Assembly (NCBI RefSeq): GCF_039555335.1
Contig: NC_092647.1
Span: forward strand, 51,797,740 to 51,861,739
Reading direction: 5' to 3'
DNA: 64,000 bases
Source of the DNA: Amphiura filiformis
Taxonomy: Eukaryota
Numbering within the stretch: position 1 is the first letter of the stretch; each line of letters opens with the position of its first letter. The position numbers were made by a program, and so were the translations under genes. Under the pieces are notes generated by a model. That model ran no database searches. It saw only the letters and a program-made list of their open reading frames with translations, and had not been told where the DNA came from. Of this stretch, positions 12-53,092 are shown piece after piece.

Positions 12-101
12 TTAGTTTGCCTCCTCAACATTGCTCTCTCTAGATGGCTGGCTCTGTAGTCGAGTCATGGTTGCTACTAAGAGTGACTGCATAGTCTTCA
101 G
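12..101 (-). CDS. TRPM-like copy A terminal exon (LKTMQSLLVATMTRLQSQPSRESNVEEAN*)
   Basis: acceptor attttacag; TAA at 12-14; homolog of the copy B last exon. Confidence 0.55.
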   Translation of the reverse strand: MKTMQSLLVATMTRLQSQPSRESNVEEAN

Positions 102-352
102 CTGTAAAATAGTGAAAATATCGAACGTTTGGTCATGATTTACTAATATTTGTTATTTTCAAACACTAAAACAGCAACAGGTCCAATCACTTCTACAAAT
201 TTTATCATTGTGCAATTGACTTTTTAAAACAATTTTTGTTTATTTGAAAACATTTGTTTGTTTCCTTGGGATAGTTTGTGGAATAACTCATGGCCCAGGC
301 CTACGCTAAGTACACAAGCCTGGATAGCCTAACATGATGGCCTTATGTAATT

Positions 353-2600
353 GTGTTTTCAAAATCTTATCTCAACAATCTTCTAAAGTTTGTTCGGCTT
401 AATATTCTCTTAAAGGAATTGACCTTAGGAACATCCAACGGAAGGTCCCTTCTGAGTGATGATCGATTGTGCGAACTAGACAACATAAAATGGGACATCA
501 TTGAACTCTGCCAAGTAAGACGAAAAGGAGAAGCTTCATATGATCTTCAAAGCGGGACGTATACTACAGAGGCACAGAGAAAGGTGGCGCAGGTGGTGTA
601 GGATTCATCATAAGAAAATACATCACAGCTAATGTCTTAAGCTATAAAAACGGATGATATAAGAGCACATCTGATAGAGTGGCACAGATGATCATCAAGT
701 TATCAAACTCCGGTATCAAACCAACAGAAAATGAGAATTATCCAGATATATATGCCAACCACAAGCCATAAAGATGACACATTTGATGAAGTATATGAAG
801 AAATCAATGGCCTTCTCAACCAAGACAAAGCAGTATTATAGTAGTTGGCAAATTTGGCATTGGCAAAAGGAATGACCGAGGAGACAAACTGCTAGACTTT
901 GCTGTCAACAAAGGATTTAGAATCATGAACACATTCTTTAAGAAGAAACCCTCTCGGAAGTGGACATGGTGAAGTCCAAATGACCACAGATTATTAAGAA
1001 CTAAGATCCGCATTAACATGAAACTGGAAAGAGCTAAGCTAATGCGCAAGAAGACAGCCAATTTGAACCTAGACAAGCTAGGCCTACGTCAACATTTACT
1101 AGAGTTCCAGTTAGCCCTACAGAACATGTTTGATGCACTGGAAGATATGAAAAAGAAGTAACACAAACTCTTAGAAACCACTCTTAAAGCTTCTCAAGAA
1201 AAGTAGGGAAATGAACATACAGAAAATAGAAAACAGAACTAAGAGAAAACAATGTCAAAAATATGCAGCAAACCTTTGAAGCATACAGAAGCTACAAAAA
1301 GACAAAACAAGCATTAACACTTGAGAGATCACAGATGGTTGCCCAGCAAGATGAGGATGGGGGAGGTAATAACAGACCGGGTGGAATTGTATCCAGAGTT
1401 GAATACTTTTACCAGGATCTCTACAGCAGCACGATCCCAGTAGAAGGCCCACGTTTAGTCTCAACCAGCGATCCAAATATACCACCCATCAACGCAGATG
1501 AAGTAAGATCTGCCCTGAAGTAAATAGATGCATTTGTAGGATTGTAGATAAATAATTCAAAAGTCGCCCAGTCTCCCCTACATAAGACATAGAATGTGAG
1601 GGGGCGTCTATACTCGACAAGGACTCAAATGCCTTCAGCAGGAGAATTAGGGAAGCAATCTACATTCGCAAAAAGGGGCCAAAGCAATCAACCGCGACGA
1701 AGGTCTCGTATCTCTCGATCACGTGTACGATCCACTGCTCAAAACAAAACATCTTCACTTCCGGGAAATGTCAACAAGCCGTTTCGCGGGAAAAGCAGTG
1801 GACCTATTCACTTGTGATCAAGCCATCAGCCCTGATGGCGAAAGCTAAAGTCGTGAGTACTCATTTAATGGATTTGTCAAGCTAAAAAGTTTGAATTATC
1901 TGCCCTTAAGGATAGGAAAAAGGAAATGCACCAGGAGATGATGAGATACTGACTGATGTGTTGAAGGAGGGAGGTGAAGTTGCAATTAGTAAGCTAGCTG
2001 ATCTATTCACACAGTGTATCCAAGAAGGCAAAATACCAGACAATTGGAGTAATGCCATTATCATCTTTCATAAGAAAGGCAACATCACAGATCTAGGAAA
2101 CTATCGTCCAATCAGTCTTCTATCCGATGTTTATAAGGTTTTCACCAAAATCATCACCAATAGGCTCACTGCTACCTTGGACTTCAAACAGCCCCGAGAA
2201 CAAACAAATCGGATTCTCTACCACAGATCACCTACATGTAGTTAACCAGATCATAGAGAAAGCAAATGAATATCAGCAACCATTGTGTTTGGTTTTCGTA
2301 GACTATGAGAAGGCTTTTGACAGCATTGAAATTCCAGCTGTACTACAGGGACTGGTTGACCAGGGAATCGAGAGCACATATGTCAACATAATCACGGACA
2401 TAATACAGCAAAGGAATAGCTACCATCCGGCTTGAGAGCAGCAAAATCAACATTCACCGAGGGTTCGACAGGGAGATATCATGCCACCAAAACTTTTCAA
2501 CGCAGCTCTGAAAGCCACCATACAAAGACTTGACTGGGAAAAGAAAGGGATCAACATCAATGGGGGAGAGGATATTAAGCCACCTGAGATTTGCAGATGG
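353..2600 (+). pseudogene. degenerate non-LTR retrotransposon fragment (EN + RT domains 0-4) in the copy A last intron
   Basis: frame-shifted pieces: ..LCQVRRKGE.. (endonuclease), NYRPISLLSDVYKVFTKIITNRL, GFSTTDHLHVVNQIIEKANEYQQPLCLVFVDYEKAFDSIE, GFRQGDIMPPKLFNAAL; multiple stops; truncated before FADD; absent from the copy B homologous intron. Confidence 0.7.
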
Positions 2601-2604
2601 TATC

Positions 2605-2880
2605 ATAATCTTTGCATTAGTGATAGCGAAGCTTAATTAAAATTAGTGATAGCGAACCTTATGTATAGCGAACCTTAATTGCAATTAGTGATAGCGAACC
2701 TGGGAGATAGCGAACCTAGATCTTATTTAAAATTAGAGATAGCGAGCCTTATTTAGAATTAGTGATATCGAACCTTAGAACTAGCGAACCTTATTCTGAA
2801 TTAGTGATATCGAACCTTAGAAGTAGCGGACTTTTTTTAGGCATTGCGAACCCTTTTCTCTGTTAGAGATAGCGGGATTT
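2605..2880. repeat. tandem array (~12 units) of ~20-30 bp 'ttagtgatagcgaacctt' repeats at the 3' edge of the LINE fragment
   Basis: direct inspection. Confidence 0.7.
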
Positions 2881-3517
2881 TCATCTCCATAGACCATGTA
2901 GACCTTACCTTGGAGAGGCCTTCACCCTGCAGTGGGTCGACGATGGCTTAGGAGGATGAGGATGATGATGATGATGATGATAAAAATTGGCGAAACAAAT
3001 GATACTCATGGCACCATGTATTGATATAGAATCTCGAGCACGCAGCTGGGCGCAGCACTTATGCATGTTGCTTGTTGTCTAATGCGTGACTGGTCATGCT
3101 GGTGGGCACTTACGTGATTTACGCGAGTGTATGTTTGGACTTAATTGACTCATGCAGCAACAAAACCAAATAATGTTCACCAATTATAAGCCAAACAAGC
3201 TGAAGAAAATTATTTTATTTCAATACATATAAAAATGTATCATTCACCTAATCAATCTTGTCAATAAATACCCTTCATATCGTCATTTCCTGTAAGGTCC
3301 TATGAACTCTTCACCCTTTGTTGCGTACCCAAATGTCCACATTTTACATCTTACAAGCTTCAATTAAGCAAAGCATTGTAACTAATTACCCTAACCCATA
3401 AAAAGCATACATTTTCTCAAAGGAAATTGCGCGAAGAATCCAAATATGCAATTTCAAAAACTGTAGGGTAATATAATGTAAAGCCACCCAAACTGAAAAT
3501 GTCGGCTAAAAATGTAC

Positions 3518-3593
3518 CTGTTCTTTAACAGCAGTCATTTCTTCCTTAACCTGTTGTTCAATCCTGGTCACATGTGTTGAGATCTCCAGAAGC
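3518..3593 (-). CDS. TRPM-like copy A exon 22, coiled coil (LLEISTHVTRIEQQVKEEMTAVKEQ)
   Basis: heptad-like; acceptor ctaatag, donor GTACAT; conserved in copy B. Confidence 0.55.
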
Positions 3594-4006
3594 CTATTAG
3601 AAAGTTCAAAAACAAAACAAGAGCTTTGTAAGACTTGATAGTTGGTATTCTAAGCTCGTCCCACTGAAAAAAAAAAACCATGAGACCAGCTGTGGTCCTG
3701 CAGAGATTTCAAATCAAAAAGTGACTTTACGAAGTCTCAATGATCGGACTGTAATTGCCCATTTGGAACGACCAGGATCAATTTTACATCTCAGGATTTG
3801 CACCTGGTCAGAAGTTTATGGGTGAAGTGACATATCACAAATATTCTAATCACCAGGCCCTAAACCCAGGTTTCAATAAAAAGTAGGTAAATCCATTTTG
3901 AACCAGCAGTGCGAATTCACATCTTCTTCCCTTTCGCCCTCATATAATCTTTGCCCTCTTGCATATTGATTAAAAACGGCTGTCACTTTCCCCGATATTT
4001 ACCAAC

Positions 4007-4136
4007 CTGTTCTCATTGTTTTGCAATTTTCTGGTGGTATTTTCTTGTTCTTTTTGTCTCTTCTTTGTCAAGTAATCTTCTCCTTTAACCGACTCCCATA
4101 TGGCTAACTCATCGATGCTGGTATCGGATTGAGAAG
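4007..4136 (-). CDS. TRPM-like copy A exon 21 (SQSDTSIDELAIWESVKGEDYLTKKRQKEQENTTRKLQNNEN)
   Basis: acceptor ttccattccatacag, donor AG|GTTGGT; acidic then basic linker before the coiled coil; ORF-anchored. Confidence 0.6.
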
Positions 4137-4179
4137 CTGTATGGAATGGAAATGTCAATTTGATAGAAATCAATACGAT

Positions 4180-4560
4180 CTTGGCTCATAACTACCACCT
4201 TCTATACCACAACCAGCTACGCACTGGCTGACCACCTTCTATACCACAACCAGCTACGCACTGGCTGACCACCTTCTATACCACAACCAGCTACTCACTG
4301 GCTGACCACCTTCTATACCACAACCAGCTACTCACTGGCTTGGCTCATGACTACCACCTTCTATATCACAACCATCCACTCACTGGCCTTGCTCATAACT
4401 ACCACCTTTTATACCACAACCAGCCATTCACTGGCTTGGCTCATAACTACCACTATCTATACCACAACCAGCTACTCACTGGCTTGGCTCATAACTACCA
4501 CCTTCTATACCAAAACCAGCCACTCACTGGCCTGGCTCATAACTTCTTCCCCAGGGGTTG
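4180..4560. repeat. minisatellite (~38-51 bp unit x ~8: accaccttctataccacaaccagctac.cactggct)
   Basis: present once in the homologous copy B intron (~31150-31200); it produces the periodic track ORFs 4340..4573 and 4347..4634. Confidence 0.8.
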
Positions 4561-5311
4561 CCATATTGTTTGAAAATCAAGTTTGTCAACCACTTGCAAC
4601 TCTGTGTCAACTAAGCCCTGACAATTTTGAGTAAAAAGCCGTAACAACGTCTGGTACGATGGAATCCATTACTGGCAGATTGGGAGAATGGGGTTGCTCA
4701 CATCTTCAATTCATGGAGAATGAGATTATTTTTGGTATCAGTGGTGTAGCTAAGATTTTCAGGGGCATGGTAAACTTTTTGGGGGGGAGGGGCAACATGG
4801 GATAAAATAATCATTTAAAAAAATCAGCCTGAATCTTGAATAATATTATGGTTAGCATGGGGCCAAGATGTTTGACAGGGGAAAGCTGCATCCCCCGGGT
4901 GCATCCCTGGCTACTCCACTAGCATGACTACAATCAAGGAAAAAAGTCTTGGAACGCTTGCGTGTAAATAACGGAAAACTGTCACCCTCTCTCCCCGTGC
5001 AATGTTGAGAAATGCCAATGTCTTCAGCGGTTCCCCAATGTGTTCCAACATTGCTTGATGGGGAGAGGGGAAGGGTAAATCATTGTTGTAGATGTCATGT
5101 TTCTTCCCAAACACACTATAGATCATTTCCATGAACATAAGAAATTCTGCACGGAATTTCGGCAGAGTGTGCCAAGCGTTCCAAGGACTTTTTTCCTTGA
5201 TTGTAGGTGTTATCATGGTTATACCTTGTTATTTACAAACTATAGCAATCAAATGGGACAACTATAACTTCAACGACCAATGGACTGGAGTCATGTTCCA
5301 TGAGCACTCAC

Positions 5312-5523
5312 CTTTGCACGACAACTTGTCGCAGCCCGTACAGCCGCACTTCTGACACATTTTTCGTAGCTTTTTAAACAGACGTCTTACAAACAGAATG
5401 ATGTGGCTTATGATGATGAATGGTGGTGCTAAAACAGGCCGCTTGTGGTATTCTGTGATAAGTTTGAATCTTTGCCATTTCCAGTGTATGTCTGTTTTTT
5501 CTTGAACAGCAACAAATGTGAAG
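5312..5523 (-). CDS. TRPM-like copy A exon 20, TRP domain ([40 protein letters not shown]...)
   Basis: matches TRPM '[38 protein letters not shown]' (TRP box WKFQR); acceptor gtttcag, donor G|GTGAGT. Confidence 0.75.
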
Positions 5524-5972
5524 CTGAAACGAATGAAATTGTATATTATATCAATTATATAGGCCCCCTACTATATAGTAATTTGTTTGTACAAGAATAT
5601 CTAATCTTTAGGAGAAACGAAATCCTGCACACCTCACTGTTTATCAAAGTAATGGCTCTCGACAGCGGCCCTGTCTCACGCGACTTGCCGCAACTTGCAA
5701 ACTTGTTTAGGGTTAAGGTTAAGATTTAGGGTTAAGATTTAGTATAATGCAGCCCATTATGATTAAAGGTTGCAATAATAAGGTTGGAGCCGGGCGGTCA
5801 ACTGGAACCGGTGGTCGAGTCTTGAAGCCGCCCTAAGTAAATATGCATGCGGCATTGATGTGCCGAAGTCCACTTTTTCAACAATTCACCCCATATAATT
5901 CCTGGCTATCGGCATTGGTCAAACAATAGTGTTTATACGAGGTTGTTTTGTGTAACTGTGGGGTATACCTAC

Positions 5973-6126
5973 TTGAACATGGCAATAAGAAGATTCAACA
6001 GTAGAACATTGCTGAGGAAGAGGTAGATTGACAAGAGAATAGTTCCAAACCATGCATTTTGTTGACACGTTTCTTCTATCGCTGTATGAGTAGCATTCCC
6101 AACCTCTCTCGTATATGTGTAACATT
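5973..6126 (-). CDS. TRPM-like copy A exon 19, pore helix/S6 (..NAWFGTILLSIYLFLSNVLLLNLLIAMF)
   Basis: matches TRPM '[27 protein letters not shown]'; acceptor ggtacag, donor GTAGGT; the frame differs from track ORF 5919..6125 and was calibrated on it. Confidence 0.7.
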
Positions 6127-7338
6127 CTGTACCATCAAGATAAAATTCAACATTGTGTTTCAGTTAAGGGACCAATAGGAATTTACAATTTTCAGGCTAC
6201 ATGACTCCATCACATTAATCGCTCAAATATTTCTTCCACCCTGATTTTGCAAGTATTGTAGTAAAATGGTTTTTGACCCCCTTATTTTAAACTAAACCCC
6301 TGAAATAAAGAAAGTCCGCAGTCATGTAACCCGTCCTACACCAAAACCTGATCTTGTTATGACAATGTGATTGATAAGGTCGTACAATGTATGCAAAATC
6401 TTGTTAGCTCCAATTTGATACCAAATTTGCTACCAAACACTCTAAATTGACAAAGATTGATACCAATATATGGACGTTGGTGCATTTTCAAAAGTTGCAA
6501 ATCAAAATGATGCACGCAGTCGAAATTGCTAAACGTTGTCAATTGATTATCCCAAGTGGCGATGCAAGCGCGGTTTATTCAATTGTTAATTTGAAATGCA
6601 TATGGATGAATGATGAGAATAAAGGTTTCGCACATCGAAAGGAACAGTGCTGGAAAGCAACTTGTTGTGATAACAGAGAAAACCAGTTAAAAAGTCCAGA
6701 ATAAAGTTTAAACAGCCTTACCCATGCTAACCAAATTAAAACCATAATACCCGCGCTCTAGAACTGTTTTAACTTTTAACTGGGTATTAAGAAGTTGCTT
6801 TTTATCATTTAAGTCAGCATGGTACATACAAAAAACACTTAAAAAGATTCGTGGAAGCATGTTTTCAGATTTTAATAAAACAGTTAAAAACATAAAACCG
6901 ACTCTGCTCATTTAAAAGATTTTTTTAAAGAGAAGCAAAAATGTGTTCTGCTGGTTTGTATCTGTCTGTAAAAATGGTTCAACTCAATATCCTGCATGGC
7001 CACCATTGGTGTTTACCATATCCACACAGCGGCGCCTCATTCTCATTTCTTTTCCATGCGTTTCCAATTAACAATTGAATAAACCGCGCATTGTACAGGC
7101 ACTTGGCTAGCTTGACCACGCTTTTCGACCGCGTGCATCGTTTTGATTTGCACCAACCTTCATTTACATTTGGTAGCAAATTTGTTATCAAATTGGAGCT
7201 AACAAGATTCTGCACACGACATTATCAATAAAATTGTCATAACCAGATCAGGTTTTGGTGTAGGACGGGTTACATAATTGAGGGGTTTACGCCATATAAT
7301 TATACAGGTATTATACAGATTATTGTCCACTGGCCTAC

Positions 7339-7513
7339 CTTCGCCATTGGCTTCCAACAGCTCCCCAAAGATTTGCAAATACGGTCGAAAAAAGATGCTT
7401 TCTAACACGTTGGACACACCAGATCTTCCTGGGTATAATATAGCTTCACTAGCTACACCATAGCACGTTAAGAACACGAGTAAGATACTGACGAACACTA
7501 GCAGATCTGCAAA
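7339..7513 (-). CDS. TRPM-like copy A exon 18, S5 (FADLLVFVSILLVFLTCYGVASEAILYPGRSG...IFGELLEANGE)
   Basis: matches TRPM '[36 protein letters not shown]'; acceptor ttattttag, donor G|GTAGGC; ORF-anchored. Confidence 0.7.
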
Positions 7514-9201
7514 CTAAAATAATGGATATTAATCGATAAAATGAAAAAAGAACCTAGATATCATTAACTTCACCCCCCATTTGCCTTCAGTTCGAAACAC
7601 TAGAAAATCGTGAAATACCTCACCATACACCAAAGCAACAGTATTGTAGGGGACCCTGGGAGAAAGTAGAACGCGGGACAAAACGAAACACCCCACATAC
7701 AAGTTATGTATTATGCTGCCCTTATCACTAGAACTACCACCACCCCTAAGATTTTTTTATCCGTCACAAAAAACGCACGCGTTTACGCCCAAACGACCTA
7801 ACTCACCTAAGCTAATCGTAGATCCATCATTTGCACTCATTTTAGTCATAAAATGTTTACCCCATATCTTACCAGACCAGGGGGTAGAACCGGCCGTCAA
7901 AGATGACCATAGAGGGGAGGTGTGAGGCCCACAATTGGTTTCTTTCTACAATAAAATCAATGATTTTCATTTCCCTCCTGTGAAATTATTCTAAGCGCTA
8001 CTGACTTTTTACTTCCTTTTATTGAGGGAAAAATTCGGTGAAAATCGCATTTTTGTAGAATTTTTAGCCGAAAATCAATGTTTGCTTATACTCTTGTCTT
8101 GTACATAGCCAGAATTTTCCAAATTTGCATGGTCGCCATCACATTATGACCTCATAGCGGTATTATGTAGGGCATATTTGTACTTATTTTGGTTTCAGTG
8201 GATAGAGGAGACCCATGGCTATACATTGATACCAAATATAACGGAATATGACGTTTATAATTGAAAATTATGGGGGTTGCAATAACTCCCTCCCCTTCGT
8301 ATTCCGTGTTACAAAATATGGCTCAGTAGTTCTAGGGTTAATCTCCAAGCTCATGTATTTAGAACACAGCATGGATCCAGCGTTGTTTGTGTAGGGGGCG
8401 TTCGAGTGAATCACATGTGTGCTTTTTACAGGAAACGTCTGTTTTTCATATGACAAAACTATGATTTTTTAGAAATATTGTGCTTTTGCTGAATTACTTC
8501 AATAGCCATATTAATGACAGATATGGGCTTTAAAGCCTACTCTGCATGGTAACAGGGCCATACATTAGCGTAACATGATAGGGACGCATGTCTAGAGAAT
8601 TCTCACGTTGTCGGGTGAAAGTGGATGGGCAATGTGGGCAAATAGTCTAAAGTGGATGGGGCAATATGGAACGCCGAAAACAGATCCCACTAAGAACTAT
8701 GAAATATGTATCCGGCCATAGTATACAGGGCATACCCTAAGTTGTGTTGACAATGAAGACACACTTCAAGGGAATGCCTTTCTAAAATGCTCCTTTGCAC
8801 GTTTCACTTTCCCCCGGCTCGATAACATTTTTGTTTTTTGTTTTTTTGTTTTTGTTTTTTAAGCTTTGTTGATGTCATTTGTTAGTTGCAGTCTATAAGG
8901 TAAGAATATCAACCAAAGCTTTTACCTTCCCGTGTTTTGTAATCCTGTTATGTCGGAACAAAAAAAAGTTTCGGTCCACTTCGCCCCGGGTTCTGATACT
9001 GCTTTTTTTTATGTATAGGCCTACATTTATGAAATCAACATGTTTCAATTATTTTATTTAAAATCCACCCTACTACTACATGGTGAATTCTGGTGCTGTA
9101 TAATTTAGTTTCAAATTAGCAGCTAATCATGAATATTAATTATCATTTACACATATTATATGCCTACACATGGAAGGGTAAAAAGTCTACAATTCACTGA
9201 C

Positions 9202-9347
9202 CATTCCTTCAATCATGACAAGTTTAGGGCCTAGATGTTTGTTGGCGGAAAAGACGTGTAGCAGCCGGATGTAAAAGATAACCAAGCTTAATGCCAACAA
9301 GATACGACCTTCTGACATGGTATCTGGAAAGCACCGTAACACGTAGC
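9202..9347 (-). CDS. TRPM-like copy A exon 17, S4 (..GRILLALSLVIFYIRLLHVFSANKHLGPKLVMIEGM)
   Basis: matches TRPM '[36 protein letters not shown]'; acceptor cactatag, donor GTCAGT. Confidence 0.7.
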
Positions 9348-10682: not shown

Positions 10683-10785
10683 CTGTTATAAATACGACGA
10701 TTTTACAAATGTCAACCTTGTTCCAAAAGTAATGAATCCAGATGCTAAGACGATACAAGAATGTAGGACCTACCTCCCACAGTAC
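10683..10785 (-). CDS. TRPM-like copy A exon 16, S3 (VLWEVGPTFLYRLSIWIHYFWNKVDICKIVVFIT)
   Basis: ~ TRPM '[27 protein letters not shown]'; acceptor ccttgcag, donor GTACGT; calibrated on the overlapping plus-strand ORF. Confidence 0.65.
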
Positions 10786-11313
10786 CTGCAAGGAAAACAT
10801 CATCGGATAATTCTACCCATTATCATCAGATTATTGTTCTTATTGTCCTCCTCCTCCTCCTCCTCCTCCCCATCATCATCATCACTATGGTGAAATTTCA
10901 TCATCATCAACACTATGATGGGATATCATCATCATCACTACGGTCACTCGAGTCAGTAAAAATGGTAAAGTAAAATCAAATTTTGAGATTTTCACAAAAA
11001 CTGTTAATTTTTATGGAATCTGTTATAAGCTAGTTAAATCCTTGCATCATTTCAATTCTGAAAATGTATACTTTTATATACTTCTCATTATTACATTTAG
11101 AGATACAATAAAAAAAAAAACCAATATTTAAATTACTAACTCGCAAAAGGTATACAGACTATATGGTGTGATATCATCATTATCATCACCACCAAATTTA
11201 ATGTATTTGAAACAAAGTCTATTTGCCAGTGACACCCTGTAAACGGTAAGACTACGTTAGTACCTATGTAATAAGAAAACGTCCAGCTCATACGCTTACA
11301 CTACATGGCCTAC

Positions 11314-17520: not shown

Positions 17521-17555
17521 ATTCATCATCCAACATCATCATCATCACCATCATT

Positions 17556-32741: not shown

Positions 32742-32745
32742 CTAA

Positions 32746-38771: not shown

Positions 38772-38800
38772 ATCTTGAAAAGAAATGTATTTGTATTTAC

Positions 38801-41851: not shown

Positions 41852-42070
41852 TTGTATATCAAAGGAAACACGCAACTTCTTTGTTGATCTTATCTCATCT
41901 CTTTATTTCTTCCTTCTTTCCTTTCAGTTGACTAAAAAGTACGGGATGTTATGGATAACCTTACTCTGGGCCATCGGTTGCTCCCTACATGAGAACTAGA
42001 GTGTTATTGAAGGTGGGTGACGAACACGTTGTGTTTTCTATCTCACATGAGGGCCATCACACTAACACTC

Positions 42071-44844: not shown

Positions 44845-44986
44845 ATTTCTCACAGACCCAAACCCTAGCACACAACCGAGACAGATGGAGGATGGTGGTG
44901 GAGCGGTCTATCATGCAGTGCCCCTACGACCCAGGAGGGTTATGGGAGCAGTAAGCAGTAAGTAAGGCTCATAGTGGTAATTACAC
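42071..44986 (+). mobile_element. RTE-like non-LTR retrotransposon (LINE), 5'-truncated, inserted in the copy B intron 10-11
   Basis: copy A/copy B intron homology breaks at ~42070 and resumes at ~44987; uninterrupted ORF to 44844 with APE endonuclease (LCEMRW, from mid-domain) and RT motifs (QAGFRSGRSTTEQIF, FIDFKKAFDRVWH, FADDIGG); short 3' UTR ending in (GTAAG)-like repeats. Confidence 0.8.
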
Positions 44987-46286
44987 CAAACATATTCCAG
45001 CCTAAAATAGGGGTTATGGGCAAAATAAGAGCTTTCACTGGGATATCCAAAATCTGCATCCTTAAATGGGGGATGAGGTTGTCAATCTGGACAAGCATCT
45101 TTAAGGTAGTACTAAATGTGTAGCTGGTATCAGTGACTCAAGACAAGCGGTACGTAGCTCTTGATCAGAGCCCTCGCAGTACCTTAGAAGACCCAGTGAT
45201 CCCTGTAAAATAAACCCAAACAAGTGACTAGTAAAGAAAATGTAAGTCCAATCCCTGCCTGGTTAGACCATTTTGTAAAAAGAATAATACCACTCCTATA
45301 ATTAAAGACAGAGATAAATGCAATTTATCGCGTCTGATGTCACTGTCAATTACGATCCTTGATTGGTTCACGCAGGTTAATCAGCGCGTAAAAGGAAGGC
45401 CGATCTATCTGGTGCTGATCGGAGAAAAGGAATAGCAGCAAATGGCGAAAAATTTCGTACTTTTACAAGGCAAAAAGCAGCTTTTCTAGGCATTGTGGAC
45501 ATGGTGCATTCACCAAAGAAAGTTTCCTACTATAAAGACCTAACTTTTGAGATGGTTTGCATGTCGAAAGGTGCAAAATTAACAATACGGCGCCCGGTTA
45601 TAAATCCGCGTTCAGCAAGTCATCATCACGACACTTTGTAAACAAACCGTGCTCGAGTTTGATTGACAGGTGACGTCAGACGCGATAAATTGTCTTTATC
45701 TTTGTCTTTAATTATAGTACAGAGCTTGACGAAGGCAAGCTACACTATCACTAGGCAAGCTGCATAAGTCACCAACCTGCACTTTCCTGTTACCAACAAG
45801 TAGGACCACTATGCAGCATTACTGTCTACCAACAGATATTGGTCTACCCCACCCACCAACCAGTCAAGTCCACTCACCGAGGCGCAGCCGAGACCTACGG
45901 CCGGTCTTTACTATAGTTTCAGAGGGCATATGTCATTTTTTTCTTTCAATTGCATGGGAAATAGGTCGGCTTTGGAGCAAAGCTAGCGGTACGTTATTTA
46001 TGATAAGAAAAGAGGCACCGCTAGAATGTACCTCATTTCTTAACATATATAATGAACCACTTGTCTTGAATCACTGAAATTTCATTGAAGTAATTCGATT
46101 CCTTGCCCCTATAATATACGTAACTTTTGTTACGAATGTGTAGTTATTTTTTGAGAAAAATGCAAAATTAGTCACAATATTTATCAGGGGTGTGTAGTAC
46201 CGACTTAATTTACTTGGTTGCAATATCACCCCATATTTGGAAGCTTCTCAAGGCATACAGTAAATTCATACCTGTCCATACCATAC

Positions 46287-46383
46287 CTGTGAATGTCTCT
46301 TGCAGGTAGAGAGGTTTAAAACTCCACTCTGTCAAATCATTGATCACGTTGCCAACGTCCTTCAAATTCACATTAGTTTGGAC
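46287..46383 (-). CDS. TRPM-like copy B exon 10
   Basis: ORF-anchored (VQTNVNLKDVGNVINDLTEWSFKPLYLQETFT). Confidence 0.6.
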
Positions 46384-46659
46384 CTGCAATAGGATACGGG
46401 ACAAAATAGAATAATGCGAGACAAAATGAAGTACATCAATCAAATTTCTAATATATATATTTACATGAGCTCGATAACGAAATTCAGGATTTAATGTAAA
46501 GGCTTGATGGCCTTTTTGAAATTAGTCTGAAAAGCGGGTGAATCGGACATAGAATGTTCAAACGGGCTGACAAAATAAAATAATTAAATTTGGATAACAA
46601 AATAGTCTGAAATCAGTTTACAGCCTTAAAATTCTCTGAATATATCATAATTTACTTAC

Positions 46660-46728
46660 CGAATTGCGATCAGGGTATCTTTCCAACTCTTCTGAAAGTA
46701 ACTCGTATAACATGGAGTCAGATTTGAC
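46660..46728 (-). CDS. TRPM-like copy B exon 9
   Basis: VKSDSMLYELLSEELERYPDRNS; donor GTAAGT; calibrated on the plus-strand ORF. Confidence 0.6.
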
Positions 46729-47032
46729 CTGCAAAATAATAGTAAAAACAGTTACCAATGACATGGTTTTTACAAGTCAGACCGTTGTCGGAATAACATA
46801 CTATGAGCATTCACCCTTCAAGACGGCCGTACATGCCTTTTCATACCATGATAAGAAATTTATGTCATCCGAGCGACTTCGTATGAATCTGGCCAAAGGT
46901 ACGAAGAGAACTATAGTATTAGATTTGGTTACTTTGCGACGGCGTATACATGTATATTAATTTTTACAGTACAATACTTAATTTTTCTTGCTATTTTGTG
47001 GTTAATTATAATGCATGAGCGAAGTATCTTAC

Positions 47033-47167
47033 CGTTCTGTACAAGCAAATAAGTTCCTGTTCTGTCAAGTACTCATAAAGGCTGATTCCTTTGTTGAGAA
47101 ACAGTCTAACAAACTCCACCTGGTCTTTAACGAGGGCTAATCGTAATGATTGGCGGACTTCTGTAAC
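47033..47167 (-). CDS. TRPM-like copy B exon 8 (intact, 135 nt)
   Basis: VTEVRQSLRLALVKDQVEFVRLFLNKGISLYEYLTEQELICLYRT; ORF-anchored. Confidence 0.65.
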
Positions 47168-47777
47168 CTGATGAAGAACGCAAACTGTCACCGATTTATA
47201 TGGTTATTTCGAGAATTCCCCGACTTTATAAAAATATTATGTTCATAATAAAAGTGAATGACGACCTGTAATTGTTGTGTAAAATGGGAGGAAGTAAAAC
47301 GTAACAGACACTGTGCGTTTGATATGCTCTTTCAGCAATGTAACGTTACTATTTATGCCTATTTCTTAGGCACCACATCGAATTTGGTCCTATAGAACTA
47401 TCGATGCCCGGTTAGGTACCGATGACTCTTAACGTCGCTCCCTGGAGATTGTATCAAGCAAAATAGTTAACAGTTGCATAGTGTTATTGTTTTTCATTTA
47501 AATAAAAAACGAATGCACTGTACAAAATAATGTTCAGGGTACGATAATAAGTGTCATCGGTACTTCTTCGGACACCGATAGCGCTATAGGACCAAAAAAG
47601 ATGTTGTGCCTTAATGATCCTTGCTAAACACCCAGTTCCCACGAGATGAAAATAGTCTTCCCATCATTCCAGACTCTGCAGTTACTATTACCCTAAGTAT
47701 ATTTTTAACAATAGACCAGCTGGTGGAGGCCATCAAGACCTTGAAAAACGTCAAAGCATATATATATATGACCATAC

Positions 47778-47896
47778 CTTGAGAGTCTTCTCCTTCTGCA
47801 GCAATCGTTGGGCCAGATCAATTCGGTTCAGTACGGTTGCAAGATGGAGCTGATCTGAATTTTGACCGGAGGCATGCAATTTTCCTTGATTCTTAG
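47778..47896 (-). CDS. TRPM-like copy B exon 7
   Basis: ORF-anchored (AKNQGKLHASGQNSDQLHLATVLNRIDLAQRLLQKEKTLK). Confidence 0.65.
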
Positions 47897-48060
47897 CTTT
47901 CATTGATAACAAAACAAAATAATAGCCGTTCATCATCAGATGTTATAGTAAGGAAGGAGCAAATGCTGTATAATTATATTTATACTAGTACTACTAGGAC
48001 AGATAGGAAGCGGCAAGAATACTCTACAGTACAATGTACACAATGTGTATAGAAATCACA

Positions 48061-48073
48061 TCCTCATCATCAC

Positions 48074-48125
<52 letters not shown>

Positions 48126-48150
48126 GTCGTCGTCGTCGTCGTAGGGGCTG
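48061..48150. repeat. (CAT)n(CGT)n microsatellite in copy B intron 6
   Basis: homologous in position to the copy A (CAT)n. Confidence 0.85.
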
Positions 48151-48330
48151 TTCAATAATGATGTGCTTAGAAGGTAACATTTTCAAATGGCTTACCAAAA
48201 CTGCTTGCCCCCCTTTCGACCTGCCAAAAATTGCCTGCCCCGCCCCCTCGAACTGCCAACACCCCCCCCCCCCCGCCCAATTTTACCATTCCCAGGGCTC
48301 ATAATTATTCATAGCCCCTTATATTCATAC

Positions 48331-48548
48331 CTTTCAATAGCGCTGTTAAAATGTTCTCCTCAAGGTTAGTGCTACTGTCCGCCTTGTCATCATCCCCGTT
48401 CAAGGGTAAAACTGTAACCAGAGATTTTCTTTCTGCTATCTCGCGGCACAATTTGGTAAGCTCTATGTGACTGGATTTGATTTTCTCGCTATCAAATGCG
48501 GAACTCAGTTGAGCTTTAAACTCATTGGCTGTTTCTACGGAAAGGTGT
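48331..48548 (-). CDS. TRPM-like copy B exon 6
   Basis: homolog of A exon 6; acceptor atttag, donor GTATGA. Confidence 0.6.
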
Positions 48549-49277
48549 CTAAATAAGAGACATTGAAATAAAGGTATAGTTAAATTTCAGTTTGAGTCTT
48601 GTTAGATTGAACATCATATTTTACGTACACTTCTGTACTTTGTCAACATTATCCTCATACTGTACTAGCCCAATGCCAGTTTTAACATTCAATTATGACA
48701 TCATCACAGGATATACTTAACTCTGTCACTTTGCCGTCATATTCGAGACGAGAAGACCTGAAAGTAAAGCGTGTCTGGCCCGGGGTGTCTGGTTGTGGTT
48801 AGGCTAGATTCTAGATTATAGGGTTAGATTTCCATTCATGGACGAATTCTTGAACATGTATGTGTGTTGTCAATCGTCATTTAAATGTGCGGATTGGTCA
48901 CACGCATGAAAGTGCGTAATGAATGCCGCGTATATAATAAATGTAATAAATCTTACGCCAAGAGCTGCCAAAGTGGTAAAATATCACGCATCTTCAAAAT
49001 AATACGTGAAAATAACCAATAATAGTGTAAAAATGGTGCAACAAAGGGCATCATTGGCACTTTCATTTTGGACGTTTTTACGGCAAAAGCTGGGGCACAT
49101 CCCTCAGATACCCCTTGATGGGTGGCAATGTCGTGCCGAATACAAATTTTTACTAAATTTTTACTACACTAAACTTTATAATTTTAGGCAATATCTCACT
49201 CCAAGCAATTCTTAAAAGTTGACAGCCTTGCATAATGTGATCTTATCGACTAAAAATAGTTTTAGCTGTAAGCTTAC

Positions 49278-49455
49278 CCGTTTTTGTTTGCGTCTTTCAT
49301 ACCGAGTTTACAACAAGCAAATGCTAAAACATTAGCGGCACCCCCGGAACCGTCTAGAATAATCACTGGGATCTTATTCTCTACCACAGTCTCGTGAACG
49401 GATTTGATTCGCCTATGACCACCTCCAACTACAATACAGACTACGGGTACTCCAC
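49278..49455 (-). CDS. TRPM-like copy B exon 5
   Basis: GVPVVCIVVGGGHRRIKSVHETVVENKIPVIILDGSGGAANVLAFACCKLGMKDANKNG; an in-frame TAA lies 1 codon upstream of the acceptor. Confidence 0.6.
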
Positions 49456-50308
49456 CTTAAAAATGGAAACAGTCGTAGTTAAAGACAAGTATCCCATCAG
49501 GTCCATGATCTCATTCCAGAAAACAAAATATAGTGAGTGGACAATAGCAATGGAAGAGCACTAGTTTGACTTCTGACGATATAGCCCAATCGGACAAAGA
49601 TTAGCTGTGGGATGAGATGGAAATATGTTGAAGACCTGACGTTTGGTGAAGTTGTAAATATTAAGACAGGTGGTTCTTCACAAATGCAAAAAGATCTTGA
49701 TGGTTTAGGTGACTGGTGCAACAAAAATGATATGCTACCAAAACCTTCAAAATGTCATATTATGCACATCAGTGTTTTTTTAAAAGAGAGCATTCTTTCA
49801 ATCATGTATATTCGGCCTATCATGGAATATGCCAGCCCTTTATGGCATACTAGTATCTCCAGGGCACAGTCTGATCAGATGGGGCTCGTCCAGAAGAGGA
49901 CGTGTCATATCATCCTGAGCCAGAGCTACACATCTTATCGGGCTGCTTTGGAGAAACTAGGTTTGGTTTCCTTTATGAGAGGAGAGATCAGCTGTTGGTG
50001 CGATTTGGCCAGGGTTTGCAAGCGTCTGCTAAACATTCTCAAATGCTGCCTAAAGGTGATTGGCACGGTAGGAATCTTAGGTATGCCCAACGGAATGATC
50101 CCCTCGCTGTAAGCGAACCAGGTACATGCAATCTACCATTCCTCAAGTTGTTCAGCGTCTTAATAATCTATGAATTCTTTTTTGCCTTTGAATGTTATGC
50201 TATTGTATGCATTTTATTGTTGCTTTGTCTTTTGATTTTATGCATATTTTTAATTGTTACCCAGGCGTATCAGGTCTGTAACCTGCTTTCTGGATTGTTT
50301 TATAAATA

Positions 50309-50527
50309 AATTAATTAATTAATTAATTAATTAATTAATTAATTAATTAATTAATTAATTAATTAATTAATTAATTAATTAATTAATTAATTATTTATTT
50401 TAATTAATTAATTAATTAATTAATGAATTAATGAATGAATAAATGAATGAATGAATGAATGAATGAATGAATGAATGAATGAATGAATGAATGAATGAAT
50501 TAATTAATTAATTAATTAATTAATTAA
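50309..50527. repeat. (TTAA)n/(AATG)n compound microsatellite in copy B intron 4
   Basis: direct inspection. Confidence 0.9.
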
Positions 50528-50912
50528 TTAATTAAACGTTTGGCTTCCATAACTCATGTCGAGGATTCTTCATACCAAATTTAAAAGCCCAATCGGACAG
50601 AGTATATTTGAACCTGCCATGATCTTAGATCATAAACAATTTATTCAAACACATTATCATTTTTTTCAAAACACATTATCATAACTTAACCTTGTTTAAC
50701 CCTACTTTAATACCAAAAAGTGTCTTTTGTCTAAGTTAGTGATCTCTAGGGCTGTTTTGGTCGCAGCATATCGGGATGCGTAACACATTTTGGCATATTC
50801 TTGTACACTCATGGTTAATATTGTAATAAAGATCTACAGTTTACATGAAGAAAGGTTACGTTGAATGATATTGGGTGCAGGAGAAGAAAGAATGATTTAT
50901 TGACCAACTTAC

Positions 50913-51084
50913 TTCTGGTATAACTTTCCATTCTTTTGATAGCAATCGTTTTTAGGAACTTGCTCTGTGCTGCAATCTTCACTCTCGTATGATCTGAACC
51001 GTCGTCATTGATTAACAAATAATGAGTATGATTCGGATCTAAATGTTGGCTCCCCAACTCGTTTGGATCAATCGTAATCGATAT
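50913..51084 (-). CDS. TRPM-like copy B exon 4
   Basis: ISITIDPNELGSQHLDPNHTHYLLINDDGSDHTRVKIAAQ...; ORF-anchored. Confidence 0.65.
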
Positions 51085-51631
51085 CTATAAAAAAAAACCA
51101 TGCATTTTGGTTTGACCTTTTCTTTGTAGACTTTGTCACCATTGAAAGCAATTATTATTTTGCTTGTATGTTTTTGTATCATCGTGATATTGCTTAGACT
51201 ACCCCCGTCCACTTGCCCATTGTGCATACTCTGGATAATGTATTTAAGCTTAAAACTTTGATTTAATTAATTTATGCACAATTGATAGATTTTCACATCT
51301 GATCTTTTCAGTCACCCTACTCCCTCTGTTTGTTAGCTTCCCCAGATTTTTAACCTGGAATTTCGCGATTAATAAACTGGCAGATTCTAAAATCAGAATT
51401 GTTCAGTATTGAAGTGCCAATACAATTATGACATTATGATATGTTGCATTCAATAATATAAGCCTACGTACACTTTACTTTTACTGTCACTAATATAATT
51501 ATATAAACTTTTTCATAACAATTTTATACTAGTATTTTGATGTAATAAATATCAGTATAATTTCGAGTTCAACTGAATGCTTTCATCATGATTAACATTA
51601 ATATGCTCAGATATTGCTCTGAAAAACTTAC

Positions 51632-51807
51632 CTCACTCGTTGCATTCGAGATTTTCTCTTTCTCTTTCAAGACTGATATTGGTGTGATACCAATTGCAAC
51701 CACCTTCCTGCGCTGGGCCATTGCTCTTCCAATGGCGTAGTCTCGTAAAGATTCGCCAACATCTTTAGTCATGCCAGAGTAAAGCCCTCCTGTAGTAAGC
51801 CATGCTC
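51632..51807 (-). CDS. TRPM-like copy B exon 3
   Basis: AWLTTGGLYSGMTKDVGESLRD...KEKEKISNATSE; acceptor caacag, donor GTAAGT. Confidence 0.7.
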
Positions 51808-52409
51808 CTGTTGTAATGCATGATCGACATTGTTTGTAGAAATAAAAGTAAATTTAGGACCAGATAACTTGTGGTGTGATTTGTGTTTGGTTACTCGGTT
51901 GACCCATATAAAGGCCCTGTTAGTGTTCCCACTCCCAGCATAAGTGTAAAAAAATAAAATTGTTTATGAATTGCACTCTTGGAGGATAAGTCATTCTAAT
52001 TGTCATTAGGTATTTCTGAAATGAAAAACATTTATTCATATGAATATCATGCATGTAACTAATTTCTGTACTTTACTGAAATTACAGATTCGTGCAAAAT
52101 GTCTTCTATTGTCTTTAATTTACGGCTTTCAGTTTAACCACTACCAGACAATGCTAGCACATCTATGACGCTATTAAACAAAGGTGCCAAAATCTGAATT
52201 TTGATGATTTTTACGATCCTCTCGATGAGCAAATCACTGAATGGGCTTTAACTCCAGGGTGCATGGGAATTACAGATGTCGAGGCAATGACAAGTAAGCC
52301 CATAGTAGCAAGAATCCTAGGAGGAAAGACTCAAAAGATCAGTATTACAACAGTTTTATTTTCCAGAGCTAGAGGTAAAAAGAAGACGCGAAAAAAATCG
52401 TCAACATAC

Positions 52410-52593
52410 CTGTACTCAATGCCGCATTTGCTAATTCCCGTAAGAATGTCTTTTTGACAGTCGATGATACATGTTTGATCCCTCGATATCCACCAACAAG
52501 AGATATTACAAGTTTCGGTTCGCCCAGTTGCCATTGTTTAGTCAGATATTGAGCTGTTTGAAATATGTCGTTGTCTTCGTCAACAATCACAAA
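52410..52593 (-). CDS. TRPM-like copy B exon 2
   Basis: ORF-anchored homolog (FVIVDEDND...LVISLVGG...STG). Confidence 0.7.
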
Positions 52594-52906
52594 CTGCCAC
52601 AAATGTTAAATATTTGTTGATGAGCTCAAAGAAAAATTTAACACTAAATATATTTTTCACAAGGCATCGATTGAGAAGGAGTAGCCATATAGGAGGGAGA
52701 ACAGGCCGGAGGAGGAGTGGGAGGAGACGAAGACGATGAGACAAGGAAGAATGGGGCCCGGGAAAAGGAATGGCTGTGATCTAAGATATGGCTATCCACG
52801 AGCAGTGGATTCAATTGAAAATCAGTCATTGTTGAGCAATTTTAATTACCTTTCGTTATGAAGTAATCTTGCCGGCATAGATTAATATAAATGTGTTGAA
52901 ACTTAC

Positions 52907-53092
52907 TTCTCTTCTTCTATAATAGCTCGATACCCGATTATTTTGTGATATCTGGTTTTTGAATCTGATGGTACCATGGCGAAGACCATTAGCAATTCCA
53001 GATTGTTCACGGTTCCCGTCCTGTTCATCAGACGCCATTGCAGATGCCATCCTATTCTGTTCCTCTGTAGATGCTGTCTGTTCTTCCGCCAT
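52907..53092 (-). CDS. TRPM-like channel copy B, exon 1 (ATG MAEEQ...)
   Basis: homolog of copy A exon 1; donor GTAAGT; a further 31 in-frame codons upstream are not conserved in copy A. Confidence 0.6.

What the first reader, a model, noticed from the sequence alone, without database searches (positions are those of the whole stretch)
12..53092. Tandem pair of TRPM-like channel paralogs with fully alignable exon-intron structure
Two 23-exon genes lie head-to-tail in the same orientation. Exon sizes and phases are identical except exon 8 and the last exon. Introns are still ~85-90% alignable, so the duplication is recent. Every exon maps onto the vertebrate TRPM architecture (MHR region, pre-S1, S1-S6, pore LLNLLIAMF, TRP box WKWQRF, coiled coil), with no C-terminal enzyme domain. 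The copies differ mainly in TE content, which makes this a clean natural experiment on paralog divergence.
Basis: partly seen in the sequence, partly recalled or inferred. Interest (0 to 1): 0.6.

Follow-up and report, generated by a model that had tools for sequence, protein, structure and literature searches.

The report
Tandem TRPM channel genes, brittle star
The window holds two neighbouring, already annotated copies of a TRPM-type ion-channel gene from the brittle star Amphiura filiformis, one of which carries a single-base frameshift; this is an ordinary local gene duplication.

Summary
Two collinear TRPM genes lie head-to-tail on the minus strand. Copy B runs 53185..29384 and copy A runs 22604..12.

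My 24-exon model of B translates exactly to RefSeq XP_072019956.1 (1239 aa, Amphiura filiformis). Exons 9-24 of A contain XP_072019957.1 (730 aa) exactly. Pfam finds a SLOG domain, a TRPM2-like MHR domain and an ion-transport domain, with no NUDIX or kinase domain.

- There are 24 coding exons, not 23.
- The exon 8 difference is a +1 base in a T-run of copy A. It shifts the frame and gives a stop two codons later, which is why RefSeq's product for A is truncated.
- Exon 14 also differs, by 6 nt in frame.
- Only about 25% of intron sequence aligns, at about 83% identity.

Apart from that one base, A is intact. dN/dS between the copies is 0.29-0.31, dS is about 0.12, and the two copies have changed at equal rates. 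The frameshift is therefore either very young or an uncorrected nanopore error (assembly QV 31.6).

Both genes fall in an echinoderm TRPM-beta subclade that lacks NUDT9H. In the Amphiura proteins the S2 calcium-coordinating Glu is replaced by Leu.

Ordinary and already annotated; low interest.

The parts
29384..53185 (-). Copy B. An intact TRPM-beta-clade channel gene with 24 coding exons, equal to RefSeq XP_072019956.1 (1239 aa).
   Evidence: The spliced translation is identical to P0079. Pfam finds SLOG, TRPM2-like and Ion_trans domains.
12..22604 (-). Copy A. A paralogue with the same 24 exons and a +1 frameshift in exon 8. RefSeq XP_072019957.1 (730 aa) starts at the Met in exon 9. The 3' UTR lies outside the window.
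   Evidence: Exons 9-24 contain P0038 exactly. For the frameshift. Removing one T gives an intact 1191-aa ORF.
16668..16671 (-). TTTT run in exon 8 of copy A (TTT in B). This is the site of the +1 insertion that shifts the frame.
16664..16666 (-). Premature TGA stop in A, created by the frameshift.
22614..22616 (-). In-frame TAA in A upstream of the conserved MAEEQ start. B's first ATG (53185) is GTG in A (22697..22695). A can therefore only start at 22604.
52907..53185 (-). B exon 1. The RefSeq ATG is at 53185 and the conserved Met at 53092. Encodes the N-terminal tail and the GTIRF motif.
52410..52593 (-). B exon 2 (start of the SLOG/MHR1 domain).
51632..51807 (-). B exon 3 (SLOG).
50913..51084 (-). 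B exon 4 (SLOG).
49278..49455 (-). B exon 5 (SLOG).
48331..48548 (-). B exon 6 (MHR).
47778..47896 (-). B exon 7 (MHR).
47033..47167 (-). B exon 8 (MHR), 135 nt.
46660..46728 (-). B exon 9.
46287..46383 (-). B exon 10.
40229..40439 (-). B exon 11 (MHR4/TRPM2-like domain).
39094..39319 (-). B exon 12 (MHR4).
38801..38887 (-). B exon 13 (pre-S1).
37629..37783 (-). B exon 14 (linker), 155 nt.
37002..37140 (-). B exon 15 (pre-S1 and start of S1).
35842..35973 (-). B exon 16 (S1-S2). Contains CIELIRQ, where Leu replaces the Ca2+-ligand Glu.
35555..35657 (-). B exon 17 (S2-S3; the WNKVD motif).
34653..34798 (-). B exon 18 (S3-S4).
32567..32741 (-). B exon 19 (S5, pore helix and FGE filter).
32178..32331 (-). 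B exon 20 (pore loop and S6; LLNLLIAMF).
31444..31655 (-). B exon 21 (TRP box WKWQRF).
30980..31109 (-). B exon 22 (post-TRP).
30417..30492 (-). B exon 23 (heptad/coiled-coil segment).
29384..29530 (-). B exon 24 (end of the coiled coil, tail and TGA stop), 147 nt. It carries an internal repeat that is absent from A.
22419..22604 (-). A exon 1 (counted from the conserved ATG).
21305..21488 (-). A exon 2.
20835..21010 (-). A exon 3.
19657..19828 (-). A exon 4.
18849..19026 (-). A exon 5.
17662..17879 (-). A exon 6.
17313..17431 (-). A exon 7.
16624..16759 (-). A exon 8, 136 nt (+1 relative to B).
16182..16250 (-). A exon 9. Contains the start Met of RefSeq XP_072019957.1.
15828..15924 (-). A exon 10.
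14635..14845 (-). A exon 11.
14016..14241 (-). A exon 12.
13711..13797 (-). A exon 13.
12754..12914 (-). A exon 14, 161 nt (+6, in frame, adding Arg-Pro).
12029..12167 (-). A exon 15.
11314..11445 (-). A exon 16.
10683..10785 (-). A exon 17.
9202..9347 (-). A exon 18.
7339..7513 (-). A exon 19.
5973..6126 (-). A exon 20.
5312..5523 (-). A exon 21.
4007..4136 (-). A exon 22.
3518..3593 (-). A exon 23.
12..101 (-). A exon 24, 90 nt, with TAA stop at 14..12.
22605..29383 (.). Spacer between B's stop and A's start. It has no TRPM-like or other recognisable coding sequence. Only about 260 bp upstream of A's start resembles the region upstream of B. It contains two TIR-flanked elements.
42033..44986 (+). 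B-specific LINE insertion in intron 10, antisense to the gene. It has an open 951-aa ORF (41989..44844) encoding endonuclease and reverse transcriptase.
1916..2432 (+). Decayed LINE reverse-transcriptase fragments inside the A-specific 3.4 kb of intron 23.

Best explanation
The window is a piece of an Amphiura filiformis (brittle star) chromosome. It carries two real, tandemly duplicated genes for TRPM-family cation-channel subunits. Both are transcribed on the minus strand, with B upstream of A.

Each gene has 24 coding exons. The encoded protein has an N-terminal SLOG/MHR region, six transmembrane helices with an FGE pore filter, a TRP box (WKWQRF) and a short heptad-repeat C-terminus. There is no NUDT9H or kinase domain.

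By homology to solved TRPM2/3/4/5 structures, the products should assemble as tetrameric non-selective cation channels. This step is inferred.

Phylogenetically they sit in an echinoderm-specific, NUDT9H-less subclade of the TRPM-beta group.

The duplication is moderately old (dS about 0.12). Since then both coding sequences have stayed under purifying selection, while introns were largely rebuilt by TE insertions and deletions.

Copy B is intact. Copy A is intact except for one extra T in exon 8. I judge this slightly more likely to be an uncorrected nanopore homopolymer error or a segregating allele (about 55%) than a fixed, very recent inactivating mutation (about 45%).
For: Collinear duplication.

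Gene models:
- The B model is identical to XP_072019956.1, and A exons 9-24 are identical to XP_072019957.1.
- All splice sites are GT-AG.

Family assignment:
- Pfam gives LSDAT_euk at 3.6e-48, the TRPM2-like domain at 1.9e-52 and Ion_trans at 3.1e-08, with no other domain.
- Solved structures: human TRPM2 scores 474 bits, TRPM3 468, TRPM5 462 and TRPM4 434.
- tblastn finds no NUDIX sequence in the window.

Selection:
- dN/dS is 0.29-0.31 and dS is 0.116-0.118.
- dN/dS is 0.34 upstream of the frameshift and 0.25 downstream.
- With an outgroup, 16 changes are A-derived and 16 B-derived.
- Removing one T restores a 1191-aa ORF.

Assembly quality: nanopore R9.4.1 reads, flye and racon, QV 31.6, heterozygosity 3.22% (PMC11310086).

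Phylogeny:
- In an NJ tree, the Amphiura trio falls with 100% bootstrap in a clade with Diadema, Holothuria, Patiria, Acanthaster and Asterias rubens XP_033625289.
- That Asterias protein is listed as TRPM-beta in Table S1 of PMC13143021.
- The nearest echinoderm homologues also lack NUDIX.

TE differences between the copies.
Against: - No transcript or read data were available. Expression, the exact 5' exons and UTRs, and the reality of the exon 8 insertion are therefore untested.
- RefSeq did not flag A as a 'LOW QUALITY PROTEIN'. It simply gave a 730-aa product, which is what one expects if the frameshift is taken at face value.
- The channel function is inferred from homology only.
- The S2 Ca2+-ligand Glu is replaced by Leu, so gating may differ from characterised TRPM2/4/5/8.
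- The tree is a distance tree on 29 sequences, not an ML analysis.
Confidence: 0.9

Rival explanations
1. Copy A is a newly dead pseudogene, or encodes only an N-terminally truncated 730-aa protein without the SLOG domain. On this reading the extra T in exon 8 is real and fixed.
For: - The sequence as given has the +1 and a TGA two codons later.
- RefSeq models only a 730-aa product starting in exon 9.
- A has also lost B's first ATG and has a TAA in that 5' extension.
- Pseudogenisation is the common fate of young duplicates (general knowledge).
Against: - Every other feature of A is intact: 46 of 46 splice sites and no other stop or frameshift.
- Exons upstream of the lesion still show dN/dS of 0.34.
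- A and B have accumulated equal numbers of derived changes, 9 against 8 upstream and 7 against 8 downstream. Any inactivation must therefore be very recent.
- The lesion is a homopolymer indel in a nanopore assembly with QV 31.6.
Confidence: 0.4
2. The two copies are not paralogues but uncollapsed haplotypes, that is, a false duplication in a very heterozygous genome.
For: The genome has 3.22% heterozygosity and was assembled as a diploid and then purged. False duplications are therefore a known risk in this assembly.
Against: - Divergence is far above the allelic level. Coding nucleotides differ by about 5% (dS 0.12), aligned intron by 17%, and 60% of each locus is unalignable, with different TE insertions.
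- The last exon and exon 14 differ by indels.
- The copies are separated by a unique 6.8 kb spacer.
Confidence: 0.02
3. The two loci are parts of one longer gene or read-through transcript.
For: They share an orientation and lie only 6.8 kb apart. No transcript data were available here.
Against: - B ends in an in-frame TGA after a complete TRPM C-terminus.
- A has its own start region, homologous to B's exon 1 plus about 260 bp upstream.
- RefSeq has two separate proteins with consecutive accessions.
Confidence: 0.03
4. The high exon similarity is maintained by gene conversion between the tandem copies, not only by purifying selection. On this reading the duplication is older than dS suggests.
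For: - Synonymous divergence (0.12) is lower than the divergence of aligned intron (83% identity, about 0.19).
- Similarity drops sharply outside exons.
- Introns are mostly unalignable.
Against: - The longest identical run is only 108 bp, which is not unusual at 5% divergence.
- Per-exon identity is fairly even, 91-99%.
- No long homogenised tract includes intron sequence.
- Constraint at synonymous sites and alignment noise in the introns could explain the gap.
Confidence: 0.2

Closest known systems
RefSeq XP_072019956.1 ('TRPM5-like', 1239 aa) and XP_072019957.1 ('TRPM2-like', 730 aa), Amphiura filiformis
   Same: These are the same genes. The B model is identical over all 1239 residues, and A exons 9-24 contain the 730-aa protein exactly.
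   Different: Nothing differs in sequence. The names 'M5-like' and 'M2-like' are arbitrary, since the two proteins are about 91% identical paralogues. RefSeq's A product hides the fact that eight intact upstream exons exist.
Echinoderm NUDT9H-less TRPM-beta proteins: Asterias rubens XP_033625289 (TRPM-beta in Morini et al. 2026, PMC13143021), Patiria miniata XP_038076679, Diadema antillarum XP_071494819, Holothuria KAJ8036605
   Same: They share the domain set (SLOG, TRPM2-like, Ion_trans, no NUDIX) and a similar length of 1150-1260 aa. They form a 100%-bootstrap clade with the Amphiura proteins.
   Different: Identity is only 36-38%. The sea-star and sea-cucumber members keep the S2 acidic pair (EE or DE), whereas the Amphiura proteins have E-L or E-I and Diadema has E-T.
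Human TRPM2 (e.g. PDB 6MIX)
   Same: It is the best-scoring solved structure, at 474 bits and E 1e-140. It aligns over the MHR region, S1-S6, the TRP helix and the C-terminal helix. It shares LLNLLIAMFN(Y/F)TF in S6, and the Ca2+ ligands Q846, N869, D872 and E1073 are conserved.
   Different: The Amphiura proteins have no NUDT9H domain. The E843 equivalent is Leu. The filter is FGE rather than FGQ. The N-terminus is short and lacks the Cys-rich segment. TRPM3, TRPM5 and TRPM4 score almost as well, so this is not a TRPM2 orthologue.
Vertebrate TRPM4/TRPM5
   Same: They belong to the beta clade, lack an enzyme domain and have a similar length. The lamprey and fish representatives group in the same large clade.
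   Different: TRPM4/5 keep the EE(I/L)RQ Ca2+ site and an FGQ filter. The Amphiura genes do not. No orthology is implied.
Lineage-specific tandem TRPM duplicates reported elsewhere (Xenopus TRPM7 and TRPM8, pike TRPM2 and TRPM7a; PMC13143021)
   Same: They arose by the same process, local duplication giving adjacent same-family genes.
   Different: The species and clade differ. The brittle star was not in that study's sample, which used Asterias rubens and Strongylocentrotus purpuratus for echinoderms.

Membership tests
TRPM (melastatin) channel family | N-terminal SLOG / melastatin homology region 1-2 | tested here: met
   PF18139 LSDAT_euk, E 3.6e-48, residues 63-327 of the MAEEQ-start protein.
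TRPM (melastatin) channel family | MHR3/4 (TRPM2-like) domain before the membrane region | tested here: met
   PF25508, E 1.9e-52, covering profile positions 3-257 of 257.
TRPM (melastatin) channel family | Six-helix ion-transport domain with a pore loop | tested here: met
   PF00520, E 3.1e-08, residues 799-1046. S1-S6 align to human TRPM2.
TRPM (melastatin) channel family | TRP box (WKxQR) directly after S6 | tested here: met
   WKWQRF is present in both copies.
TRPM (melastatin) channel family | C-terminal coiled coil for tetramer assembly | tested here: inconclusive
   A 3-4 hydrophobic spacing runs over about 34 residues (ISTHVTRIEQQVKEEMTAVKEQLKTMQSLLVATM, read). The alignment to TRPM2 runs to chain residue 1222. 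However, Pfam TRPM_tetra (PF16519) was not hit, and no structure was predicted.
TRPM-beta clade (Himmel 2020; Morini 2026) | Groups with TRPM2/4/5/8 and invertebrate TRPM2-like proteins rather than with TRPM1/3/6/7 | tested here: met
   In the NJ tree rooted on TRPM1/3/6/7, the proteins sit in a 100%-supported echinoderm clade containing Asterias rubens XP_033625289. That protein is listed as TRPM-beta in Table S1. This is a distance method only.
TRPM2-type chanzyme | C-terminal NUDT9-homology (NUDIX) domain | tested here: not met
   There is no PF00293 hit in the protein. tblastn with three NUDIX-bearing C-termini finds nothing in the window. The NUDIX domain was detected by the same method in P0084 and P0089.
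TRPM6/7-type channel-kinase | C-terminal alpha-kinase domain | tested here: not met
   There is no PF02816 hit. The protein ends about 150 residues after the TRP box.
Ca2+-activated TRPMs (TRPM2/4/5/8) | Five Ca2+ ligands: S2 Glu and Gln, S3 Asn and Asp, and a TRP-helix Glu (E843, Q846, N869, D872, E1073 in human TRPM2; PMC6759353) | tested here: not met
   Gln, Asn, Asp and the TRP-helix Glu are present. The S2 Glu is Leu in A and B, and Ile in paralogue XP_072019735.
Tandem segmental gene duplicate | Adjacent, same orientation, collinear homologous exons with conserved intron positions and phases | tested here: met
Processed or unitary pseudogene (copy A) | Disabling lesions together with relaxed constraint | tested here: inconclusive
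   There is one frameshift but no sign of relaxed constraint. The lesion type matches the assembly's error profile.

The most novel reading that the evidence does not exclude
The Amphiura-specific TRPM-beta subclade (A, B and XP_072019735) has lost NUDT9H and has replaced the universally conserved S2 Ca2+-coordinating Glu with Leu or Ile. These channels may therefore be gated by neither ADP-ribose at a NUDT9H domain nor Ca2+ at the canonical site, which would be a new gating mode within TRPM-beta. If the exon 8 frameshift is real, copy A would additionally yield a SLOG-less short subunit that could modulate B.
Probability: 0.15. Interest if true: 0.4.

Novelty: already known. Interest (0 to 1): 0.15.

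Why it matters
It matters little beyond annotation hygiene.

The pair illustrates the lineage-specific local duplications that expanded TRPM channels in non-vertebrates. That process has already been described (PMC13143021).

Two practical points follow:
1. RefSeq's 730-aa 'TRPM2-like' product for copy A is probably an artefact of a single-base indel. It should be checked against reads before anyone treats it as a natural short isoform or a pseudogene.
2. The Glu-to-Leu change at the S2 calcium site in this brittle-star subclade is a cheap, testable hint. It suggests that some echinoderm TRPM-beta channels may not use the canonical calcium activation site.

Tried and rejected
It was fixed.
- My first choices for three splice sites were replaced after comparing the two copies and the RefSeq protein. 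These were the exon 7 acceptor (47854), the exon 10 donor (46272) and the exon 11 acceptor (40484). The corrected positions are 47896, 46287 and 40439.
- I looked for an alternative splice site that would rescue the exon 8 frameshift in A. A shifted acceptor runs into TAG, and there is no usable GT donor before the TGA (reasoned).
- A conserved island in intron 18 (A 9079-9189, B 33215-33326) was considered as a hidden exon or RNA. It is just intron sequence next to exon 18, displaced in B by a 1.3 kb insertion.
- I searched the spacer and the 10.7 kb upstream of B for extra TRPM exons or relics, NUDIX exons or other genes. Nothing was found.
- An Rfam scan for intronic miRNA or snoRNA, prompted by mir-204/211 in vertebrate TRPM1/3, found only one marginal tRNA-like hit outside the genes.
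- The look-up of encoding contigs for P0038 returned no record.
- The first tree script timed out. I redid it with a fast distance routine.
- The haplotig and single-gene readings are rejected, as set out under the rival explanations.

Full report
**What is in the sequence**

BLASTN of the first 27 kb against the rest of the window gives one collinear, same-strand series of 30 blocks. Window 28..22868 (copy A) matches 29451..53343 (copy B) at 78-96% identity.

Both genes therefore run right to left, with B upstream of A.

No other long ORFs or TRPM-like fragments exist in the 6.8 kb spacer or in the 10.7 kb to the right of B.

**Gene models**

I chained stop-free minus-strand stretches through frame-compatible GT-AG sites. 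I then refined three junctions by comparing the copies.

The final 24-exon model of B (53185..29384) translates to a 1239-aa protein. It is identical, residue for residue, to RefSeq XP_072019956.1 of Amphiura filiformis.

Exons 9-24 of A contain RefSeq XP_072019957.1 (730 aa) exactly. The two accessions are consecutive and lie on the same 64.3 Mb scaffold.

The window is therefore brittle-star chromosome, and both genes are already annotated. Position 12 is the end of A's TAA stop and 53092 is the conserved MAEEQ start codon of B.

**Comparison of the two copies**

All 46 splice sites are GT-AG in both copies. Exon lengths are identical in 21 of 24 exons. The three exceptions are:
- Exon 8 is 136 nt in A against 135 nt in B.
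- Exon 14 is 161 against 155 nt. The difference is in frame and adds Arg-Pro in A.
- The last exon is 90 against 147 nt. B has a second copy of an SQxSxESNV motif.

The exon 8 difference is one extra T in a T-run (A 16668..16671 reads TTTT where B has TTT). It shifts the frame and produces TGA at 16666..16664. This explains why RefSeq gives A only a 730-aa product starting at a Met in exon 9.

A also has GTG where B has its first ATG, and a TAA in that 31-codon extension. The shared start is therefore the MAEEQ Met.

Removing one T restores an uninterrupted 1191-aa ORF.

**Selection and age**

Between the copies, dS is 0.116-0.118, dN is 0.034-0.036 and dN/dS is 0.29-0.31.

dN/dS is 0.34 for exons 1-8, upstream of the lesion, and 0.25 for exons 9-23.

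With paralogue XP_072019735 (51% identical) as outgroup, 16 amino-acid changes are A-derived and 16 B-derived. The counts are similarly balanced upstream and downstream of the frameshift. A shows no trace of relaxed constraint.

The assembly was made from nanopore R9.4.1 reads with flye and racon. Its QV is 31.6, or 6.8e-4 errors per base, in a genome with 3.22% heterozygosity (PMC11310086). A homopolymer indel in a 3.6 kb coding sequence is well within that error budget.

I therefore cannot tell an assembly error from a very recent real lesion. I lean slightly to error or polymorphism.

The divergence is far above allelic level: about 5% in exons, 17% in aligned intron, and 60% of each locus unalignable. 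This excludes uncollapsed haplotypes.

**Introns and TEs**

Only 4.9 kb of the 19.0 kb (A) and 20.1 kb (B) of intron aligns, which is about 25%. The mean identity of the aligned part is 83%, with a range of 75-91%. Intron 7 does not align at all. Overall, 38-39% of each locus is alignable.

Many differences are clean presence/absence insertions:
- A 2.95 kb LINE sits in B intron 10. It has an open 951-aa ORF encoding endonuclease and reverse transcriptase, and is antisense to the gene.
- Decayed reverse-transcriptase fragments lie in the A-specific 3.4 kb of intron 23.
- Elements bounded by 110-230 bp inverted repeats lie in A intron 19 and B intron 13.
- There are also minisatellites and microsatellites.

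The claim that the copies differ mainly in TE content is supported. Most of the elements could not be classified.

**What the protein is**

Pfam finds the TRPM SLOG domain (E 3.6e-48), the TRPM2-like MHR domain (E 1.9e-52) and Ion_trans (E 3.1e-08), and nothing else.

The best solved structures are human TRPM2 (474 bits), TRPM3 (468), TRPM5 (462) and TRPM4 (434). These scores are practically a tie.

No NUDIX or kinase sequence is encoded anywhere in the window.

An exhaustive HMMER search gives echinoderm proteins of 1150-1260 aa as the nearest relatives, at 36-38% identity. They come from Diadema, Patiria and Holothuria, and they also lack NUDIX.

In a bootstrapped NJ tree, A, B and XP_072019735 form a 100% clade. 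That clade sits inside a 100% eleutherozoan-echinoderm clade that includes Asterias rubens XP_033625289. Table S1 of Morini et al. 2026 lists that protein as TRPM-beta.

The pair is thus a brittle-star expansion within an echinoderm, NUDT9H-less branch of TRPM-beta. The RefSeq labels 'M5-like' and 'M2-like' carry no orthology information. The same paper makes this point for non-vertebrate TRPMs in general.

**How it probably works**

By homology, the products form tetrameric cation channels. This is an inference.

The filter motif is FGE. The invertebrate beta proteins and TRPM1/3/6/7 in my alignment have the same motif, whereas the vertebrate TRPM2/4/5 representatives have FGQ. From earlier mutagenesis work on TRPM pores, recalled from memory and not checked here, a Glu at this position favours divalent permeation.

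Five residues coordinate Ca2+ in Ca2+-sensitive TRPMs (E843, Q846, N869, D872 and E1073 in human TRPM2; PMC6759353). Four of them are conserved. The S2 Glu is Leu in A and B, Ile in the third Amphiura paralogue and Thr in Diadema. The sea-star, sea-cucumber, hemichordate, mollusc and vertebrate beta proteins in my alignment keep an acidic pair.

Canonical Ca2+ activation may therefore be weakened. This is a hypothesis only.

**Verdict**

The interpretation as tandem TRPM paralogues without an enzyme domain is right. The claims of 23 exons, of harmless exon 8 variation, of 85-90% alignable introns and of a clean recent duplication need correcting.

The genes are already in RefSeq, and local TRPM duplications are a described phenomenon. 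Interest is low.

Noticed in passing
window 41989-44844 (+), inside B intron 10: An uninterrupted 951-aa ORF with endonuclease (Exo_endo_phos_2) and reverse-transcriptase (RVT_1, E 7.5e-37) domains. It looks like a young, possibly still active LINE. It is inserted antisense in B and absent from A, where 81 bp occupy the equivalent site.
   Followed up: partly
window 16668-16671 (A exon 8): The single-base T-run difference that truncates RefSeq's product for copy A is of the type left by nanopore assemblies. XP_072019957.1 (730 aa) may be an annotation artefact of one base.
   Followed up: partly
B exon 16 (35842-35973) and A exon 16 (11314-11445): The S2 motif reads CIELIRQ. The Glu that coordinates Ca2+ in TRPM2/4/5/8 is Leu here, Ile in Amphiura XP_072019735 and Thr in Diadema. 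Other beta-clade proteins in the alignment keep EE or DE.
   Followed up: partly
window 6324-6437 / 7169-7275; 38033-38250 / 38510-38741; 24271-24491 / 24873-25094; 27437-27558 / 27798-27920; 59338-59621 / 62191-62479: Five pairs of inverted repeats, 110-290 bp long and 81-93% identical, bound 0.5-3.1 kb segments. They resemble non-autonomous DNA transposons or foldback elements. Two are copy-specific intron insertions (A intron 19, B intron 13).
   Followed up: no
window 17523-17632 (A intron 6) and 48055-48125 (B intron 6): The same trinucleotide microsatellite (TCA/ATC) sits in the equivalent intron of both copies. It has about 36 units in A and about 24 in B, so it predates the duplication and has changed length since.
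   Followed up: no
window 29384-29530 against 12-101 (last exons): B's tail has two copies of an SQ(P/L)S(R/T)ESNV motif where A has one. This accounts for the 57-nt length difference and reflects either a small internal duplication in B or a deletion in A.
   Followed up: no
window 54251-54324 (-): A marginal Rfam tRNA match (31.6 bits against a gathering score of 29) lies about 1 kb upstream of B. ARAGORN calls nothing there. It is probably a tRNA-derived SINE head or a chance match.
   Followed up: partly
window 4194-4544 (A intron 21) and 50305-50535 (B intron 4): There are two copy-specific simple arrays. A has a 37/48-bp minisatellite of about 9 units. B has a 230-bp palindromic (AATT)n tract.
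   Followed up: no
window 1230-2432 (+), A intron 23: Several adjacent stop-free stretches in different frames carry LINE reverse-transcriptase motifs. Two of them match Pfam RVT_1 at E about 3-6e-05, below the curated cut-off. This is a decayed LINE and accounts for much of the 3.4 kb that A's last intron has and B's lacks.
   Followed up: partly
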